NCBI GenBank assembly: GCA_045542075.1
Contig: JAZQKI010000048.1
Coordinates: 41,036-105,035 of the forward strand
From: Eubacteriales bacterium
GTDB taxonomy: Bacteria; Bacillota; Clostridia; Oscillospirales; CAG-272
DNA: 64,000 bases
Direction: 5' to 3'
Under the pieces are notes generated by a model. It worked only from the letters and a program-made list of their open reading frames with translations. It was not told the origin of the DNA and searched no databases. Shown piece after piece: positions 23,371 through 30,956 of the stretch. Position 1 is the first letter of the stretch; the number at the start of each line of letters is the position of its first letter. Made by a program: the position numbers and the translations under genes.

Positions 23371-24153
23371 GTGGAATACACAACAAAAATACTCATAGCC
23401 GACGAAAATAATTCCCAGCGTCACATTTTGAGGGAGGCTCTCTCACACGCTGGATGCAGATACATAGACGAGGCAACAAACGGCGAGGACGCGCTCGCGC
23501 TAATCAACCGTACCCACCCCGATGTGCTGATAGCGGATATATGGCTCTCAAAGCTGGACGGACTTTCCCTCGTCCGCAGTATCAAGTCAGGCAGAGACCG
23601 TGCACCTATCATAATTATGACCTCGCCTATTTCAAACCAAAATATATTCGTTCAGTCGCTTGAGGCAGGCGCGGACGTATGCCTTATCAAGCCTGTAAAC
23701 ACCTCAACTCTCATTCAGCACATAGAAAACCTGCTCAAAAAGAGAAAAAACTCCCTCTCCCCCGAGTTTTATAACACAAAGCCCGTAGCAGACGAGACAC
23801 CCGACATTGAGGCGCAGGTCACACGCATCATCCACCAGATAGGCGTTCCCGCGCACATCAAGGGCTATCAGTACCTCCGCACGGCAATCCTCCTCACTAT
23901 AAATGACTCCGACATAATAAACTCCGTCACCAAGGTCCTCTACCCATCGGTTGCTAAGAAATATCAGACTACAACCAGCCGCGTGGAGCGTGCGATAAGA
24001 CACGCCATTGAGGTCGCGTGGGACAGAGGCGACGTGGATACGCTGAATTCCTACTTTGGATATACCATTCAGAACAACAGAGGAAAACCTACGAATAGCG
24101 AGTTTATCGCCATGATCGCGGATAATTTGAGACTTAAATACAAGTTGTACTAA
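23371..24153 (+). CDS. spo0A: Sporulation master regulator Spo0A
   Basis: Receiver domain plus [14 protein letters not shown]...[28 protein letters not shown]...[17 protein letters not shown]; GTG start with GGAGG RBS. Confidence 0.98.
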
Positions 24154-24156
24154 TAA

Positions 24157-24277
24157 GCCCTCCCCTGTGTAAGGGGAGGTGGCGCGCGAAGCGTGACGGA
24201 AGGGTTGTAAAATATGGACATTTGGCTGAAACAATCCCTCAGTCGCTCTGCGACAGCTCCCTTTACACAAAGGAGCC
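24157..24277 (+). repeat. Hairpin-rich element, family 1 (unit 1)
   Basis: ctcccctgtgtaaggggagg-tggc...ggaagggttg / caatccctcagtc...cagctccctttacacaaaggagcc with imperfect terminal inverted arms. Confidence 0.8.
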
Positions 24278-24356
24278 GACATGAACACCTGCGAACCCAA
24301 AATTTATTGCCATGATCGCGGATAATTTGAGACTTAAATACAAGTTGTACTAATAA

Positions 24357-24476
24357 GCCTCCCCTGTGTAAGGGGAGGTGGCACGCGAAACGTGACGGAA
24401 GGGTTGTAAAATATGGACATTTGGCTAAAACAATCCCTCAGTCGCTCTGCGACAGCTCCCTTTACACAAGGGAGCC
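24357..24476 (+). repeat. Hairpin-rich element, family 1 (unit 2)
   Basis: Near-identical copy of 24157-24277. Confidence 0.8.
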
Positions 24477-24580
24477 GACGTGAACACCGGCGAACCCAAA
24501 ATTTATTGCCATGATCGCGGATAATTTGAGATTGAAATATAAGCTATATTGAATAACCCCTATATCCTATGATAATATGA

Positions 24581-24622
24581 AAAAAATCCCGACAGATTCT
24601 ATGTCTGTCGGGAATAATTTTT
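24581..24622. terminator. Bidirectional terminator between spo0A array and RAYT
   Basis: tcccgacaga-ttctatg-tctgtcggga with A/T flanks. Confidence 0.8.
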
Positions 24623-24835
24623 ATATTTACAAAGACAAAAACTATTCTTCTGTATATAATTCATCGTAGTACCAGCGTATTGGGTTTTCATAAATGTATT
24701 TCTTTATTTTATCATAATCTTCTCTACCTCGCACAACGTGATCATAAAATCCCCTTTGCCATATATTTACCCCATATTCCTTATTGCAAAACCGTTTGAG
24801 TGTAGATACAAATTGCGACACGGCTGAATGCTGCT

Positions 24836-24864
24836 TTGTAGGGGGCGACGTCCTCGACGCCCCG
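24836..24864 (+). repeat. GTAG-type REP inside RAYT CDS
   Basis: ttgtagggggcgacgtcctcgacgccccg. Confidence 0.9.
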
Positions 24865-25004
24865 TCTCCCGACACAAACAGCATGATATGAATATGGTTT
24901 GGCATAATCACGTATTGGTCAACCGTTACGTTGTTATAGAAATCACTTAATTGGTTTATGTATTTCTCAGCTACTTTACCGTATGGCAATAACTCCACAC
25001 ATTT

Positions 25005-25033
25005 CGGGGCGTCGAGGACGTCGCCCCCTACAA
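25005..25033 (-). repeat. GTAG-type REP inside RAYT CDS (inverted copy)
   Basis: Exact reverse complement of 24836-24864. Confidence 0.9.
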
Positions 25034-25173
25034 TATGTGATAAGGTTTTCCGGCGGCCTTCCGTACATATTGTTATAAAATATGCGCCCACTGTTGCGTA
25101 ATCAAAATTTTTTAATCTTGTAGGTTTTCTTTTCGGTAATTCTTTTTCTTTATCCATTTTCATCACCCGCATT

Positions 25174-26348: not shown

Positions 26349-29300
26349 TTAACCGAAGAATGTAACAAATGCTACTGCATCATCGAATGTTTCGAATGTG
26401 TAAACAGCAACTACATCTGTTTCAGAGGTTCCCTGTCCTGCATTAAAGTTGCAAAGGAGCTTGAGAGTTTTGCCTTCTCCATTATTCAAGAAGTAGTCCA
26501 TTCTCAAAGAACCTGCATTCTGTTCCTTAGCTTCAACATAGCATCCCTCTGCTACATCGCTACCGATGAATCCTGTTGTAGTGTTGATTCTGTAAAGTAC
26601 GATTACGTGCTTACCAAAGTCAACAGTATCATTGATGAAGAGGTTGTTAGCGGCGCCTGCAGCTGTCGCATCGGAAACCTTAACACCGTTAGAACCGTTA
26701 TCTGTAAGAACGCCGGAATCAACAGTAGCATTCTTATAAATGTCGGAACCTACGTGAGATGTTGCAACCTTAAGATTGAGGTAAGCTACGAATCTATCAG
26801 CAGCTGCCTGAGAATCGAATGTATAAACACCCTGAATGCTTACAGAATTAGATGCACCAGCAAAGTTGCAGATCAAGCTGAGAGCCTTGCCGGGTTCTAC
26901 ACCTGTATCGCCATAGTTATATACAACCCATGTGTTAGCTGCCTGTGCAACCTCTCTGTAGCTTGCTATACCATTGTTTGCAGATACGCCAAGGTATGCA
27001 GCTTCGCTATCCATCTTGTAGATTACAACCATGTACTTGCCAAAGTCAACATCGCTCTTGAGAATCAACTCTGCAGCGGGAATTTCAGTATAGGGCTCAC
27101 CGTAGTTGTATACCTTTGTGCCGGTGATTGTAACGCCATCAGCACCATTGTTTGTAACGATATCAAAGTCAGCAGATTCGGGATCAATTGCGCCGAAGAG
27201 ATCTGCTCCAGCATGAGCTGTAACGGTAGCTACGTGTCCACACTCAACACAAGATACTACACCGCCGTCAACTGCGTACTTGTGAGCACCGCCGCCTGTG
27301 GGAACGTCAACAGTGAAGCCACAGAAATCGCAAGTGAGTCTATTTGTTCCTGCTTCGAAACATGTGGGAGGAACAAGAACGTCGGTTCTGTATCCGTTGT
27401 GATCACATGTACCATCAATAATTGTACCAAGCTGGTTTGCATATACGTTTGCTTCTTCAAGAGTCTTGAAGGATACGATGTGGGAGAAGTCAGTCTGGTT
27501 AGCACCGATATTGCAACGAATATCAATTCTCATACCAGCTATTGCCGCTTCCTGAAGGTCAACTACAACAGTCTTCCATGCACCGTTTGTACCCATATCA
27601 TCTCTTACAACCATGATAGGCTTGTTCCATGTTACGAAACGAAGCGATGCATCAGGTGTATCTGTTCTGTATCTTATTACAAGGTACTGCTGAATAAAGT
27701 TCTTATCTCCAAGGTCAGCAGCTGCATGTACTGCGATAACGTGATCCATACCGGGGTCACCGTTTGCGTCCATACCTGTGATAGAAACGTATTTCTCTGC
27801 CTCGTTGTAAGAAACTGCATTATTAGTAAGTGCGGAGGAAAGAGTGGGACCGAAGTTATTAATTCTCCAGTTGAGGTTCTCAGCACCTATATATGTTTCA
27901 GGAACATAGTTGTGACAACCCTTATTACATGTTATAGAGCCATCCTCGTTGAGTGCCATTCTATGAACAACATCAAATTCAACGGAGAAGGTAATGGGAT
28001 CTGTAACGATCATCCATGTCTCTTCATCCATAGGAGCATAAACTGTGAGCTCAACAACGTCGCCCTTCTTAACGTCAGCAACGTATCCCTCAACGAACAT
28101 ACCGTTTACAGTCCAAACGATATTTTCCATTTCGGAGATCATAACCTTACCGTCGTCGATTGCTATCCAGCTGTAGTGGTATTCCTGGATACCGGGGTTC
28201 TGCATAGATGTTCCGACAACAAACTCGGGAGTGGTATTTTCACCAAGAACAGCCTCAAGAGGATTGTTTGCTGTTCCGGGGAGAGCCTTGTCAACGATGA
28301 AGAAGCAAGGATCTGTAATAGCGTTCCACATCTCGTCGCGCTGCATCTGAACCTGTACTTCAACAATATCGCCAGCCTTAACGTCTACGCTAAGAGCGGG
28401 ATCATAGTTTTCATCAAACATCATATATCCGTTTACGGAGATTATGATATTTGTGCCATGGTAATCAAGAACGAGCTTGTGATCGTACTCAGCATAGTAA
28501 GAATAGTAGTAATTCTCAACGGCATTGGGATCCCAGAAGGAAGTACCTTCTACGAATGCGGGTGTTGTTACAAAGCCGGTCTCGAGGTCGAGAGGCCATT
28601 CAGCGGTTGCACCGTGAACTGTGCCACATGCAGTACAAACGGTCTGACCGAGCTCGTTAACTGCAGTTTCATCGTGGAAGCACTTCTGAGAGAGCATTTC
28701 AGCATACTTTGCTGCTGCTGCCTGAGAATCAAATGTATAAATTGCCTGAATGCCTACAGAGTTAGAAGCACCTGCAAAGTTGCAGATCATAGCAAGAGTT
28801 GTGCCGGGCTCAACATTTGTTGCGCCATAGCTGCATACTGCCCACTTGTTAGGTGTCTGAGCTACCTGTGCATAGCTTGCGATACCGCCGTTTGCGGAAA
28901 CACCAAGGAATGCGCCTTCGGTATCCATCTTGTAAACTACAACCATGTACTTACCGAAGTTAACGTCACTCTTGAGAATGAGCTCAGCTGCGGGAATAGC
29001 GGAGTAGTCACCGCCATAGTTGTATATCTTTGTACCTGTTACAGTAACGCCCTGAGAACCGTTATCTGTAATAAGGTCGAAGTCGGGAGATGTTGCGTCG
29101 ATCGCGTTGTAGATCTGAGCGCCCTCGTGAGAGGTTGTGGGAATTGCTTCCTCATAGCAGTACTTACATGTAACGCTGCCGCCCCAACCTATTTCGTACT
29201 CATAGTGAGGACACTGGCCGTCAACGTATCTGCCGAGCTGAGATGCATAAACGTATGCTTCAGCGACATCTGCGAATGTTGCGATGTGGGAGAAGCTGGT

Positions 29301-30881
29301 CTCTCCGTTTTCGGATGCACCAATGTTACATCTGAATTCCATCCAACCCTGGTAGTTTGCACCTGCGTCAACAACTGCTATCTGCCATTCGCCATTTGTA
29401 CCGAGAACAGGCCAAGGCAATGCTTCTGCGAGTGCGGGATTATAAGTTACGAAACGGACGGTAACTGTAGGATCGGTCGTCTTGTATCTGATAACAACGT
29501 AACGTCCGCTTGCGCCGTTAGCGATGGAGTAAACCTTATCTGTACCGGAGTCAGGAGCTGTGGACGCGCCGGTGATGGTTACACAACCATTTTCTGCATC
29601 GTAAACACCTACGTTGGGGAGTGCAACCTGATTCTTCATTGTTTCAAGAAGCTCGCCTGCTGCATAGGAGTCGGGAACTGCGAGTACACCGTATGTTGCG
29701 TCGCCACACTCGTAGATACAGCCGTAAGCACCCTTAGATGTTACACCGTGAACGTGCTCGGGCATTTCCCATCTCTGGTAGCCGCAGAGGCTACAGTTGG
29801 TATCACAAGCATATGTATATGTATGCTGGTTGGGGATTACTGTCTGAGCAACTACTGCTGTACCGCAGACGGAGCACTCAGCTCCCTCGGTGTAACCAAC
29901 GGTGAAACATGTGGGAGCAACTGCGGGAAGAGTGATCAATTCGCCGTGAGCTGCGGGAATAATTACCTGTGCCTTGATAACCTGACCACAGTCCTTACAT
30001 ACGGAACCGTCGGAAAGACCAGCGGTCGTACATGTGGGATCGTAGCCGGAAACCTTCTTAGGTGTGTGCTTAGCAAGCTTTGTGGGGGTGGGCTCTACGG
30101 TAACAATACCGCAGACGGAACAATACATACCGCCCTCAGAACCTGCCTTTGTACAAGTAGCCTCAACGTCCTCCATGGGAACGTTCTTGTGACCAAGTGC
30201 GGGGATAACAGCTTCTGCGCTGAATACCTCGTTACATACTGTACAAACTGTTGCGCCCTTGTATCCGTCTTCTGTACAAGTAGGAGCAACGGAAGGAACT
30301 GTTGTCTTTACATGCTCGGTCTTGGGAATAACAGTCTGTTCCTGTACCCAAACGTCACATACAGAGCACTTCTTACCGCTTGTAAGACCTGTCTCTGCAC
30401 AAGTAGCTGCTTTTCCTTCAACTACTACTACGTCGTGACCGGTTGCAAAAATAACTTCCTGAGCTACAACAACTGCGTTACAAACGCTACAAACCTCACC
30501 GTCAGTAAGACCGGAGGTCGTACATGTTGCTGCAACACCGGCAACTGCTACACCAGTGTGTCCCTTAGCAGGGTCTACCTGCTGTTCAACTGTGATAACG
30601 CCACAAACTGTACAAATCTTACCCTCTGTAAGACCTGCCTTTGTACACGTAGGAGCTACTGCTGCAATAGTTTCCTCTACGTGAGCTGCGGGCGCTCTCT
30701 TTTCTCCACAGAGATTACAGTCTGCGTCACAAGCGTTATCATACGCATGCTCACAGCCTGCGGGAACCACGATGGGATCCGTGGGCTTCTCTGAGGACTG
30801 GGGCTCGTCATTATTGTCACATGCTACGAAAAGCACTGTGAAACAAAGAAGAAGAGCCATAAGAGCTAAAAACTTTTTCAT
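26349..30881 (-). CDS. Large modular cell-surface lipoprotein (about 1510 aa) with Cys/His repeats and duplicated beta-rich domains
   Basis: MKKFLALMALLLCFTVLFVAC lipobox; seven ~41-aa H...TC...CxxC repeats; internal duplicated modules. Confidence 0.88.
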   Translation of the reverse strand: MKKFLALMALLLCFTVLFVACDNNDEPQSSEKPTDPIVVPAGCEHAYDNACDADCNLCGEKRAPAAHVEETIAAVAPTCTKAGLTEGKICTVCGVITVEQQVDPAKGHTGVAVAGVAATCTTSGLTDGEVCSVCNAVVVAQEVIFATGHDVVVVEGKAATCAETGLTSGKKCSVCDVWVQEQTVIPKTEHVKTTVPSVAPTCTEDGYKGATVCTVCNEVFSAEAVIPALGHKNVPMEDVEATCTKAGSEGGMYCSVCGIVTVEPTPTKLAKHTPKKVSGYDPTCTTAGLSDGSVCKDCGQVIKAQVIIPAAHGELITLPAVAPTCFTVGYTEGAECSVCGTAVVAQTVIPNQHTYTYACDTNCSLCGYQRWEMPEHVHGVTSKGAYGCIYECGDATYGVLAVPDSYAAGELLETMKNQVALPNVGVYDAENGCVTITGASTAPDSGTDKVYSIANGASGRYVVIRYKTTDPTVTVRFVTYNPALAEALPWPVLGTNGEWQIAVVDAGANYQGWMEFRCNIGASENGETSFSHIATFADVAEAYVYASQLGRYVDGQCPHYEYEIGWGGSVTCKYCYEEAIPTTSHEGAQIYNAIDATSPDFDLITDNGSQGVTVTGTKIYNYGGDYSAIPAAELILKSDVNFGKYMVVVYKMDTEGAFLGVSANGGIASYAQVAQTPNKWAVCSYGATNVEPGTTLAMICNFAGASNSVGIQAIYTFDSQAAAAKYAEMLSQKCFHDETAVNELGQTVCTACGTVHGATAEWPLDLETGFVTTPAFVEGTSFWDPNAVENYYYSYYAEYDHKLVLDYHGTNIIISVNGYMMFDENYDPALSVDVKAGDIVEVQVQMQRDEMWNAITDPCFFIVDKALPGTANNPLEAVLGENTTPEFVVGTSMQNPGIQEYHYSWIAIDDGKVMISEMENIVWTVNGMFVEGYVADVKKGDVVELTVYAPMDEETWMIVTDPITFSVEFDVVHRMALNEDGSITCNKGCHNYVPETYIGAENLNWRINNFGPTLSSALTNNAVSYNEAEKYVSITGMDANGDPGMDHVIAVHAAADLGDKNFIQQYLVIRYRTDTPDASLRFVTWNKPIMVVRDDMGTNGAWKTVVVDLQEAAIAGMRIDIRCNIGANQTDFSHIVSFKTLEEANVYANQLGTIIDGTCDHNGYRTDVLVPPTCFEAGTNRLTCDFCGFTVDVPTGGGAHKYAVDGGVVSCVECGHVATVTAHAGADLFGAIDPESADFDIVTNNGADGVTITGTKVYNYGEPYTEIPAAELILKSDVDFGKYMVVIYKMDSEAAYLGVSANNGIASYREVAQAANTWVVYNYGDTGVEPGKALSLICNFAGASNSVSIQGVYTFDSQAAADRFVAYLNLKVATSHVGSDIYKNATVDSGVLTDNGSNGVKVSDATAAGAANNLFINDTVDFGKHVIVLYRINTTTGFIGSDVAEGCYVEAKEQNAGSLRMDYFLNNGEGKTLKLLCNFNAGQGTSETDVVAVYTFETFDDAVAFVTFFG

Positions 30882-30956
30882 TTTTCTCTCTTTCCTTTCT
30901 GAAAAATATTTTAATTTCGTTAAAGCATCCACTGAAATATGCCTTCACTTGTGCTA

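What the first reader, a model, noticed from the sequence alone, without database searches (positions are those of the whole stretch)
24836..25033. RAYT transposase carries a perfect 29-bp inverted GTAG-REP pair inside its own reading frame
ttgtagggggcgacgtcctcgacgccccg (24836-24864) and its exact reverse complement (25005-25033) lie 140 bp apart inside the CDS. They bracket the HUH motif and translate in frame as GASRTSPPT and IVGGDVLDAP. Established knowledge: RAYTs bind and cleave GTAG-headed REP hairpins, usually in flanking DNA. No copy of this REP was noticed outside the gene in this window. Inference: the two copies are kept identical by enzyme recognition or conversion, and the 198-bp internal REPIN-like segment could be excised, inverted or swapped, giving self-regulation or domain shuffling of the transposase.
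Basis: partly seen in the sequence, partly recalled or inferred. Interest (0 to 1): 0.7.

Follow-up and report, generated by a model that had tools for sequence, protein, structure and literature searches.

The report
REP hairpin pair inside RAYT gene
A small transposase-like gene of a gut Clostridia bacterium carries, in frame on either side of its catalytic motif, two inverted copies of the DNA hairpin (REP) that such enzymes act on; the layout is real and conserved as DNA in most relatives, but REPs inside such genes were already reported in 2018, so this refines a known oddity.

Summary
A perfect 29-nt inverted repeat (24836-24864 / 25005-25033) lies inside a 176-aa HUH/Y1 gene (24642-25172, minus strand). 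Each arm is a GTAGGG-headed hairpin.

It is a clade-wide layout. Of 101 scorable homologues (105 loci, 33-78% identity), 84 have a sense REP before the HUH motif and an antisense REP after it. Arms are identical in 42 of the 84 and otherwise differ mostly at unpaired or compensated positions. REP type follows the RAYT tree. The arms stay 96-100% identical in DNA where synonymous sites are saturated. The encoded peptides fall in low-confidence loops and can change frame.

The genome holds about 38 related REPs. A paralogue carries a second REP class inside its own gene.

Prior art: Quentin et al. 2018 reported in-frame REP insertions in tnpA_REP subclass 2.4. The strict inverted pair around HUH and its concerted evolution go beyond the text of that paper that I could read (its Figure S10 is held only as an image).

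Inversion or domain shuffling is not supported. No inverted copy was seen. Two relatives have deletions between the arms, and both are dead genes.

Best reading: resident cognate REPs kept at the DNA level, with the peptides as passengers.

The parts
24642..25172 (-). RAYT-like HUH/Y1 gene, 176 aa from the first ATG. The true start may be M4 or M6.
   Evidence: ORF. NCBIfam REP_Tyr_transpos 62.5 bits, below its cut-off of 80. Pfam Y1_Tnp 21.5 bits against a cut-off of 23. Profile hit to 4ER8 with E=1e-12. Foldseek top hit 4ER8, TM 0.58/0.62. dN/dS 0.05-0.15 against orthologues.
25005..25033 (-). Arm 1: REP in GTAG orientation on the coding strand. It encodes I47-P56 (IVGGDVLDAP), in the loop between beta1 and alphaA.
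   Evidence: pLDDT is below 50 at residues 52-56. GTA is read as a codon in 94 of 95 sense REPs in homologues.
24836..24864 (+). Arm 2: REP in GTAG orientation on the template strand. It encodes G104-T112 (GASRTSPPT), directly after the HUH strand (beta3-alphaC loop).
   Evidence: pLDDT is below 50 at residues 105-111.
24865..25004 (-). 140-nt segment between the arms, encoding alphaA, beta2 and beta3 with the HUH motif.
   Evidence: Secondary structure of the model and the alignment.
24888..24896 (-). HUH motif codons (H93 I94 H95).
   Evidence: Read from the sequence. H93 and H95 are invariant in alignment A1.
24696..24698 (-). Codon of the presumed catalytic Tyr159 (YIYENP; N163 lies four residues downstream).
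   Evidence: Y159 and N163 are invariant in A1. The role of Y and of N at Y+4 is taken from Quentin 2018.
24580..24620 (.). Terminator-like hairpin just past the 3' end of the gene.
   Evidence: Inverted repeat I2, followed by a T run. Function is inferred.

Best explanation
The two arms are resident copies of the enzyme's own cognate REP hairpin. They sit in frame in two disordered surface loops of a RAYT-like HUH/Y1 nuclease: one in GTAG orientation on the coding strand before the HUH motif, the other in GTAG orientation on the template strand after it. Shown here: they are conserved as DNA hairpins and not as peptides. Their sequence type co-diverges with the enzyme clade. The copies linked to one gene are homogenised with each other. 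Inferred: each strand of the gene, when single-stranded at a replication fork or during transcription, presents one REP that the enzyme can bind. Local copying or conversion, mediated by the enzyme or by recombination, then keeps the gene-linked copies alike. The net effect is that the enzyme and a seed of its substrate are inherited as one unit. The encoded peptides are passengers tolerated in loops.
For: The family-wide layout >H< (sense REP, HUH, antisense REP) is present in 84 of 101 homologues. IR scores are 24-31 against at most 15 in codon shuffles. Among 84 IR-bearing genes, arm-to-arm differences are 40 at unpaired positions, 11 compensated stem pairs and only 7 uncompensated stem changes. 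In the class-B clade, protein identity is 48-73% and third-position identity 26-60%, yet the arms are 96-100% identical in DNA. dS is 0.7 to over 3 and dN/dS 0.03-0.15 outside the arms. REP type is clade-specific on a tree built without the arm residues. In the window clade one stem pair is G:C, C:G or T:A, changed in both arms together. In this genome each of the two paralogues holds its own REP class, and both classes are dispersed families (16 and 22 copies, controls 0). Five of about 38 copies lie in the two RAYT genes, which are 0.07% of the genome; most others are intergenic. G025 and G015 have class-B REPs only inside the gene. In G018 the 2 internal and 2 flanking copies share the T:A variant, while about 36 extragenic copies are A:T. 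The loops have pLDDT below 50. Arm 2 is read in another frame in about 10 of 95 cases. The conserved purine.purine stem mismatch and the GTAG head match the known TnpA_REP recognition determinants.
Against: There is no direct evidence that this enzyme binds, cuts or copies these hairpins. The window's exact arm variant has no extragenic copy in its own genome. Extragenic doublets in relatives have short spacers of 27-56 nt; their homology to the gene's inter-arm segment was not compared. The association of REP number with RAYT presence within the genus is modest (median 12 vs 7, one-sided p=0.018) and is confounded by incomplete MAGs. The DNA-level conservation could reflect molecular drive without any benefit to host or enzyme.
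Confidence: 0.55

Rival explanations
1. Neutral passengers. REPs were inserted by RAYT activity into two permissive loops of its own gene and are merely tolerated. This is the reading given in Quentin et al. 2018.
For: The loops are low-confidence or disordered. The peptides are not conserved. Copy number varies within the loops: 2 tandem copies in L035 and L117 and 4 in L023. In-frame REPs occur in other genes too. The authors place the variable region away from the DNA-binding surface.
Against: Position, orientation and frame are the same in about 83% of 101 genes down to about 35% identity. The arms are conserved at all nucleotides where synonymous sites are saturated. The arms carry a cost, since deletions between them kill the gene, yet occupancy stays high. 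Internal pairs persist and stay identical in genomes without extragenic copies.
Confidence: 0.2
2. mRNA-level autoregulation. The two arms pair in the transcript into a 29-bp duplex, or fold into local hairpins, limiting translation or inviting RNase III cleavage. This would keep a dangerous nuclease at a low level.
For: The MFE and centroid folds of the 271-nt mRNA segment contain the full 29-bp long-range duplex: -102.8 kcal/mol, z=-6.5. Half of the genes have perfect arms.
Against: Where arms differ, the changes preserve each local hairpin and break the long duplex. Mismatch chemistry shows no wobble bias (23 G.U, 24 A.C, 27 transversion-type). 18 of 84 genes have several arm-to-arm mismatches. 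A GTAG head and a clade-specific REP identity are not needed for such a role.
Confidence: 0.12
3. Invertible or excisable cassette. The 198-bp unit flips or is excised, switching the gene off or on, or shuffling domains.
For: The geometry is that of an inverton or REPIN. Two independent deletions have endpoints in or next to the arms in relatives (L027, L116).
Against: No inverted central segment was seen in 105 loci. Both deletions are irreversible frameshifted pseudogenes without HUH. The 198-bp unit is not repeated elsewhere in the genome. Arms of 24-29 bp are short for homologous inversion. Read data were unavailable.
Confidence: 0.08

Closest known systems
TnpA_Y1 subclass 2.4 (= RAYT group 4 of Bertels 2017) with REPs inserted in frame within tnpA_REP (Quentin, Siguier, Chandler, Fichant 2018, PMC6006769)
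   Same: HUH/Y1 enzyme with NH[IFV]H and WQ motifs. GTAG-headed long REPs whose stem bottom is three G-C pairs. REP sequences lie inside the gene without breaking the frame. There is a variable insertion in the beta3-alphaC loop, away from the catalytic site.
   Different: Here the REPs form a strict inverted pair that brackets the HUH motif, with one arm in the beta1-alphaA loop. The paper places insertions 'generally between HuH and Y'. The Y motif is YIYENP, not YIxNNP. The hosts are gut Clostridia, not mainly Cyanobacteria and Bacteroidetes. The window gene has no flanking REPs. Concerted evolution of the arms and co-divergence with the enzyme clade are not described in the text I could read (Figure S10 is held only as an image).
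E. coli REPtron: TnpA_REP (RAYT, PDB 4ER8) with REP/BIME sequences (Ton-Hoang 2012; Messing 2012; Corneloup 2021, PMC8266576)
   Same: Best sequence and fold match. GTAG head, imperfect palindrome with a stem mismatch, dispersed intergenic REP family with mixed clusters.
   Different: In E. coli the REPs flank the gene. Here they lie inside the reading frame. There are two paralogues with two REP classes, and the location is not syntenic among close relatives.
REPINs (Bertels and Rainey 2011)
   Same: Two REPs in inverted orientation. Short convergent doublets of the same REPs exist in relatives, for example G017.
   Different: The intragenic unit has a 140-nt coding spacer and is single-copy. 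When the arms differ, local hairpins are conserved and not the long doublet stem.
In-frame REP/RPE insertions in other genes (Di Nocera 2013, PMC3733652; Rickettsia RPEs)
   Same: Palindromic repeats translated as loop peptides.
   Different: Here the host gene is the enzyme that acts on the repeat, and the sites, orientation and frame are conserved across the clade.

Membership tests
RAYT / TnpA_REP (HUH Y1, class 2) | HUH motif plus catalytic Tyr with Asn four residues downstream | tested here: met
   H93-I-H95, Y159 and N163 are all invariant in alignment A1.
RAYT / TnpA_REP (HUH Y1, class 2) | Fold and sequence closest to the solved TnpA_REP (4ER8) | tested here: met
   Profile search E=1e-12. 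Foldseek rank 1, E=1.7e-7, TM 0.58/0.62.
RAYT / TnpA_REP (HUH Y1, class 2) | Passes the curated family model cut-offs | tested here: not met
   NF047646 scores 62.5 bits against a cut-off of 80. PF01797 scores 21.5 against 23. The gene is a divergent member.
RAYT / TnpA_REP (HUH Y1, class 2) | A cognate GTAG-headed REP family dispersed in the genome | tested here: met
   22 class-A and 16 class-B copies, controls 0. They are mostly intergenic.
RAYT / TnpA_REP (HUH Y1, class 2) | REPs flanking the gene (REPtron arrangement) | tested here: not met
   There is no other copy in the 64-kb window. Orthologues in G014 and G018 do have flanking copies.
RAYT / TnpA_REP (HUH Y1, class 2) | Strand-specific binding and cleavage of single-stranded REP | not testable with these tools
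   This needs the biochemical assay (CST assay of Corneloup 2021).
TnpA_Y1 subclass 2.4 | Key motifs NH[IFV]H, WQ and YIxNNP | tested here: inconclusive
   NHIH and WQ match. The Y motif is YIYENP, with E where the consensus has N.
TnpA_Y1 subclass 2.4 | Variable REP-derived insertion in the beta3-alphaC loop that keeps the reading frame | tested here: met
   Arm 2 encodes residues 104-112, directly after beta3.
TnpA_Y1 subclass 2.4 | Long REP whose stem bottom is three G-C pairs | tested here: met
   GTAG-GGG...CCC in nearly all arms.
TnpA_Y1 subclass 2.4 | Assignment by the authors' subclass HMM or tree | not testable with these tools
   The authors' profiles are not available here.
REPIN | An inverted REP doublet that is itself the repeated unit in the genome | tested here: not met
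   The 198-bp unit occurs once. Only the paralogue matches, at 43% protein identity.
Intragenic inverton | Both orientations of the IR-bounded segment exist | tested here: inconclusive
   No inverted form was seen in 105 assembled loci. Read data were unavailable.

The most novel reading that the evidence does not exclude
An 'inside-out' mobile system. The heritable master copies of the genome's REP family sit inside the nuclease gene. The enzyme copies these internal hairpins out and re-copies them among the gene-linked sites. Enzyme clade and REP sequence therefore co-diverge, and a transferred gene can seed a new REP family in a naive genome.
Probability: 0.25. Interest if true: 0.75.

Novelty: new variant of a known kind. 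Interest (0 to 1): 0.45.

Why it matters
How REP families and their RAYT enzymes stay matched over long periods is unresolved, as is whether RAYTs are active replicators of REPs at all. A clade in which the substrate is built into the enzyme's own gene is a compact, testable model. In this clade the layout is fixed, the arms evolve in concert and the REP type co-diverges with the enzyme. One 530-bp gene contains the enzyme and two substrates. That allows direct assays of binding, cleavage, copying out and self-regulation. The finding also warns annotators that the hypervariable 'VG......P' and 'G......PT' peptides in these proteins are read-outs of DNA hairpins and not protein motifs.

Tried and rejected
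1. G.T wobble hint. In the first 23 genes, 4 of 5 arm mismatches gave G.T on the antisense strand. With 84 genes the counts were 23 G.U, 24 A.C and 27 transversion-type, so there is no strand-specific pairing signal.

2. Inversion screen. No locus has the central segment on the opposite strand. The intragenic-inverton paper PMC10028968 does not mention transposases.

4. Synteny. tblastx of the 1.5-kb flanks against the seven closest homologue loci found essentially nothing shared. The 'single-copy, vertically fixed' picture of domesticated RAYTs is therefore not supported here.

5. REP inside another ORF. The 255-aa ORF at C41:15504-16268 looks like a spurious low-complexity frame.

6. REP number versus RAYT presence. 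The association within the genus is weak (p=0.018) and confounded by MAG incompleteness and by contigs breaking at REPs.

7. The loose GTAGG+hairpin scan is noisy: 94 hits against 42 for a reversed-head control. I therefore relied on the two class patterns, whose controls were zero.

8. One paper reading failed on syntax. One script stopped part-way, so only the class-B group was analysed for arm versus third-position identity.

Full report
**Observation.** The window contains a perfect 29-nt inverted repeat. One arm, TTGTAGGGGGCGACGTCCTCGACGCCCCG, is at 24836-24864 and its reverse complement is at 25005-25033, with 140 nt between them. Both arms lie in a 176-aa ORF on the minus strand, 24642..25172. 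The 22-nt core with up to three mismatches occurs only at these two places in the window, and shuffles gave none. Codon shuffles of the gene never gave an inverted-repeat score above 12, against 29 observed. Each arm is itself a GTAGGG-headed hairpin with an A.A mismatch in the stem. The arms translate as IVGGDVLDAP (residues 47-56) and GASRTSPPT (104-112). The HUH motif (H93-I-H95) lies between them.

**The protein.** It is a divergent RAYT-type HUH/Y1 enzyme.
- NCBIfam REP_Tyr_transpos scores 62.5 bits, below its cut-off of 80. Pfam Y1_Tnp scores 21.5 against a cut-off of 23.
- A profile of 13 homologues hits E. coli TnpA_REP (4ER8) at E=1e-12.
- An AlphaFold model (mean pLDDT 76) has 4ER8 as its top Foldseek hit.
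- H93, H95, Y159 and N163 are invariant.
- Outside the arms, dN/dS against orthologues is 0.05-0.15 with dS above 0.7. The protein is therefore under purifying selection.

**The genome.** The window is part of a 1.64-Mb, 48-contig genome with 46.7% G+C. The closest public records are gut and rumen Clostridia/Eubacteriales MAGs.
- The genome holds two families of GTAGGG-headed hairpins. Class A resembles the window's arms (22 copies by a degenerate pattern). Class B is GTAGGGCGGGGGCTTGCTCCCGCC (16 copies). The reversed-pattern controls gave zero in this genome.
- Most copies are intergenic, and some lie in mixed clusters.
- A second RAYT paralogue (C27:10335-10886, 43% identity) carries three class-B copies inside its own reading frame, at the same two protein positions.
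- Five of about 38 REPs thus lie in two genes that make up 0.07% of the genome.

**Generality.** I collected 25 homologous loci from 61 related genomes and 80 more from the species-representative collection. Of the 105 loci, 101 could be scored for architecture; the rest were truncated or broken.
- 84 of the 101 genes have at least one sense-oriented REP before the HUH motif and one antisense REP after it. 77 have exactly this pair.
- GTA is read as a codon in 94 of 95 sense copies. About 10 of 95 antisense copies use another frame.
- The arm sequences differ widely among homologues, with over 20 types, but are alike within a gene. Of 84 genes, 42 have identical arms, 24 differ at one position and 18 at several.
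- The differences are 40 at unpaired positions, 11 compensated stem pairs within each arm's own hairpin, 7 uncompensated stem changes and 5 outside the hairpin.
- The mismatches that the long arm-to-arm duplex would contain show no wobble bias: 23 G.U, 24 A.C and 27 transversion-type. The conserved unit is therefore the local REP hairpin, not the 29-bp long-range duplex that RNA folding predicts.

**DNA-level conservation and concerted evolution.**
- In the class-B clade, proteins are 48-73% identical and third positions at identical residues match only 26-60% of the time. The arms are 96-100% identical in DNA.
- On a tree built with the arm residues removed, REP type is clade-specific.
- In the window's own clade one stem pair is G:C (window), C:G (L037) or T:A (L007, L008). 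It is changed in both arms together, which is four coordinated substitutions.
- In G018 the two internal and two flanking copies share the T:A variant, while about 36 extragenic copies carry A:T. Gene-linked copies are thus homogenised with each other and not with the pool.
- G025 and G015 have class-B REPs only inside the gene, with perfect arms.
- The REP-encoded residues coincide with the low-confidence stretches of the model, 52-56 and 105-111.

**Instability.** Two relatives carry deletions of the HUH-coding segment with endpoints in or next to the arms.
- In L027, TTGTAG of arm 1 is joined directly to AGGACGTCGCCCCCTAC of arm 2.
- In L116, the deletion runs from the loop of arm 1 to just past arm 2.

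Both are frameshifted pseudogenes. Loop 1 can also hold two to four tandem copies (L035, L117, L023). No locus shows an inverted central segment.

**Prior art.** Notes from earlier sessions of this scan pointed to a 2018 paper, which I read.
- Quentin, Siguier, Chandler and Fichant state that in subclass 2.4 (Bertels group 4) REP sequences are found inserted within tnpA_REP genes. [quoted passage not shown] The authors take them to be tolerated in a peripheral region.
- The window's protein matches the 2.4 signature in NHIH, WQ and the G-C-footed long REP. Its Y motif is YIYENP, not YIxNNP.
- What I did not find in the text available to me: a strict inverted pair bracketing HUH, with one arm in the beta1-alphaA loop; arm identity and compensated co-variation; co-divergence of REP type with enzyme clade.
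- Their Figure S10 is held only as an image, so part of this may be visible there.
- Known biochemistry fits the arms being genuine substrates: GTAG is essential, recognition is strand-specific, stem irregularities are required, and cleavage is at a CT next to the REP.

**Interpretation.**
- Shown: the arms are REPs of the genome's own families, conserved as DNA hairpins, evolving in concert within a gene and co-diverging with the enzyme. The peptides are passengers in loops.
- Inferred: each strand of the gene presents one GTAG-form REP when single-stranded. Enzyme-mediated or recombinational copying among the gene-linked copies keeps them alike. Enzyme and a seed of its substrate are inherited together.
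- Rivals: neutral tolerated insertions, mRNA-level autoregulation through the long duplex, and an invertible or excisable cassette. I rank these lower for the reasons given in their entries.

**Verdict.** The switching and domain-shuffling idea is not supported. The locus is a Clostridial variant of a published oddity. It is of moderate interest and gives a clear experimental route to the open question of what RAYTs do with REPs.

Noticed in passing
window 24103-24543: A 199-nt tandem repeat, 2.2 copies, 95% matches. Each unit is the last ~50 nt of the spo0A-like gene (ORF 23371..24153, ending ...[17 protein letters not shown]) plus a ~149-nt element with its own internal palindromes (CCTCCCCTGTGTAAGGGGAGG; CTCCCTTTACACAAGGGAG). 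It looks like a small insertion element that duplicated the gene's 3' end twice.
   Followed up: partly
G000 C27:10335-10886 (locus L035): A second RAYT paralogue (43% identity) with two tandem class-B REPs in loop 1 and one in loop 2. All three are identical to the commonest extragenic class-B variant.
   Followed up: yes
G000 C31:19653-20091; C32:16509-16739; C4:46428-46502: BIME-like clusters that mix class-A and class-B REPs in alternating orientation.
   Followed up: partly
L023 (G017:C24:95323-96201): A RAYT homologue of 298 aa whose loop 1 holds four tandem 84-nt units, each with a class-A REP. The same genome has dozens of convergent REP doublets spaced 51 or 82 nt start to start.
   Followed up: partly
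L027 (G032:C108) and L116 (G010:C19:15666-16050): RAYT pseudogenes in which the HUH-coding segment between the two REP arms is deleted. The endpoints lie in or next to the arms.
   Followed up: yes
L118 (G008:C89:40272-40433): A nested palindromic REP cluster outside any RAYT gene: class B (+), a second REP type (+), its near-copy (-), class B (-).
   Followed up: no
window 26349-30932 (minus strand): A 1527-aa ORF with many repeated Cys-containing motifs (ATCTxxGL / CxxC-like repeats) and a signal-peptide-like N-terminus. A 1505-aa ORF is open on the opposite strand, presumably a mirror artefact.
   Followed up: no
several relatives (e.g. G024, G018, G035): Many REP copies lie within about 50 nt of contig ends. 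These repeats evidently break short-read assemblies, which may hide RAYT genes in MAGs.
   Followed up: no
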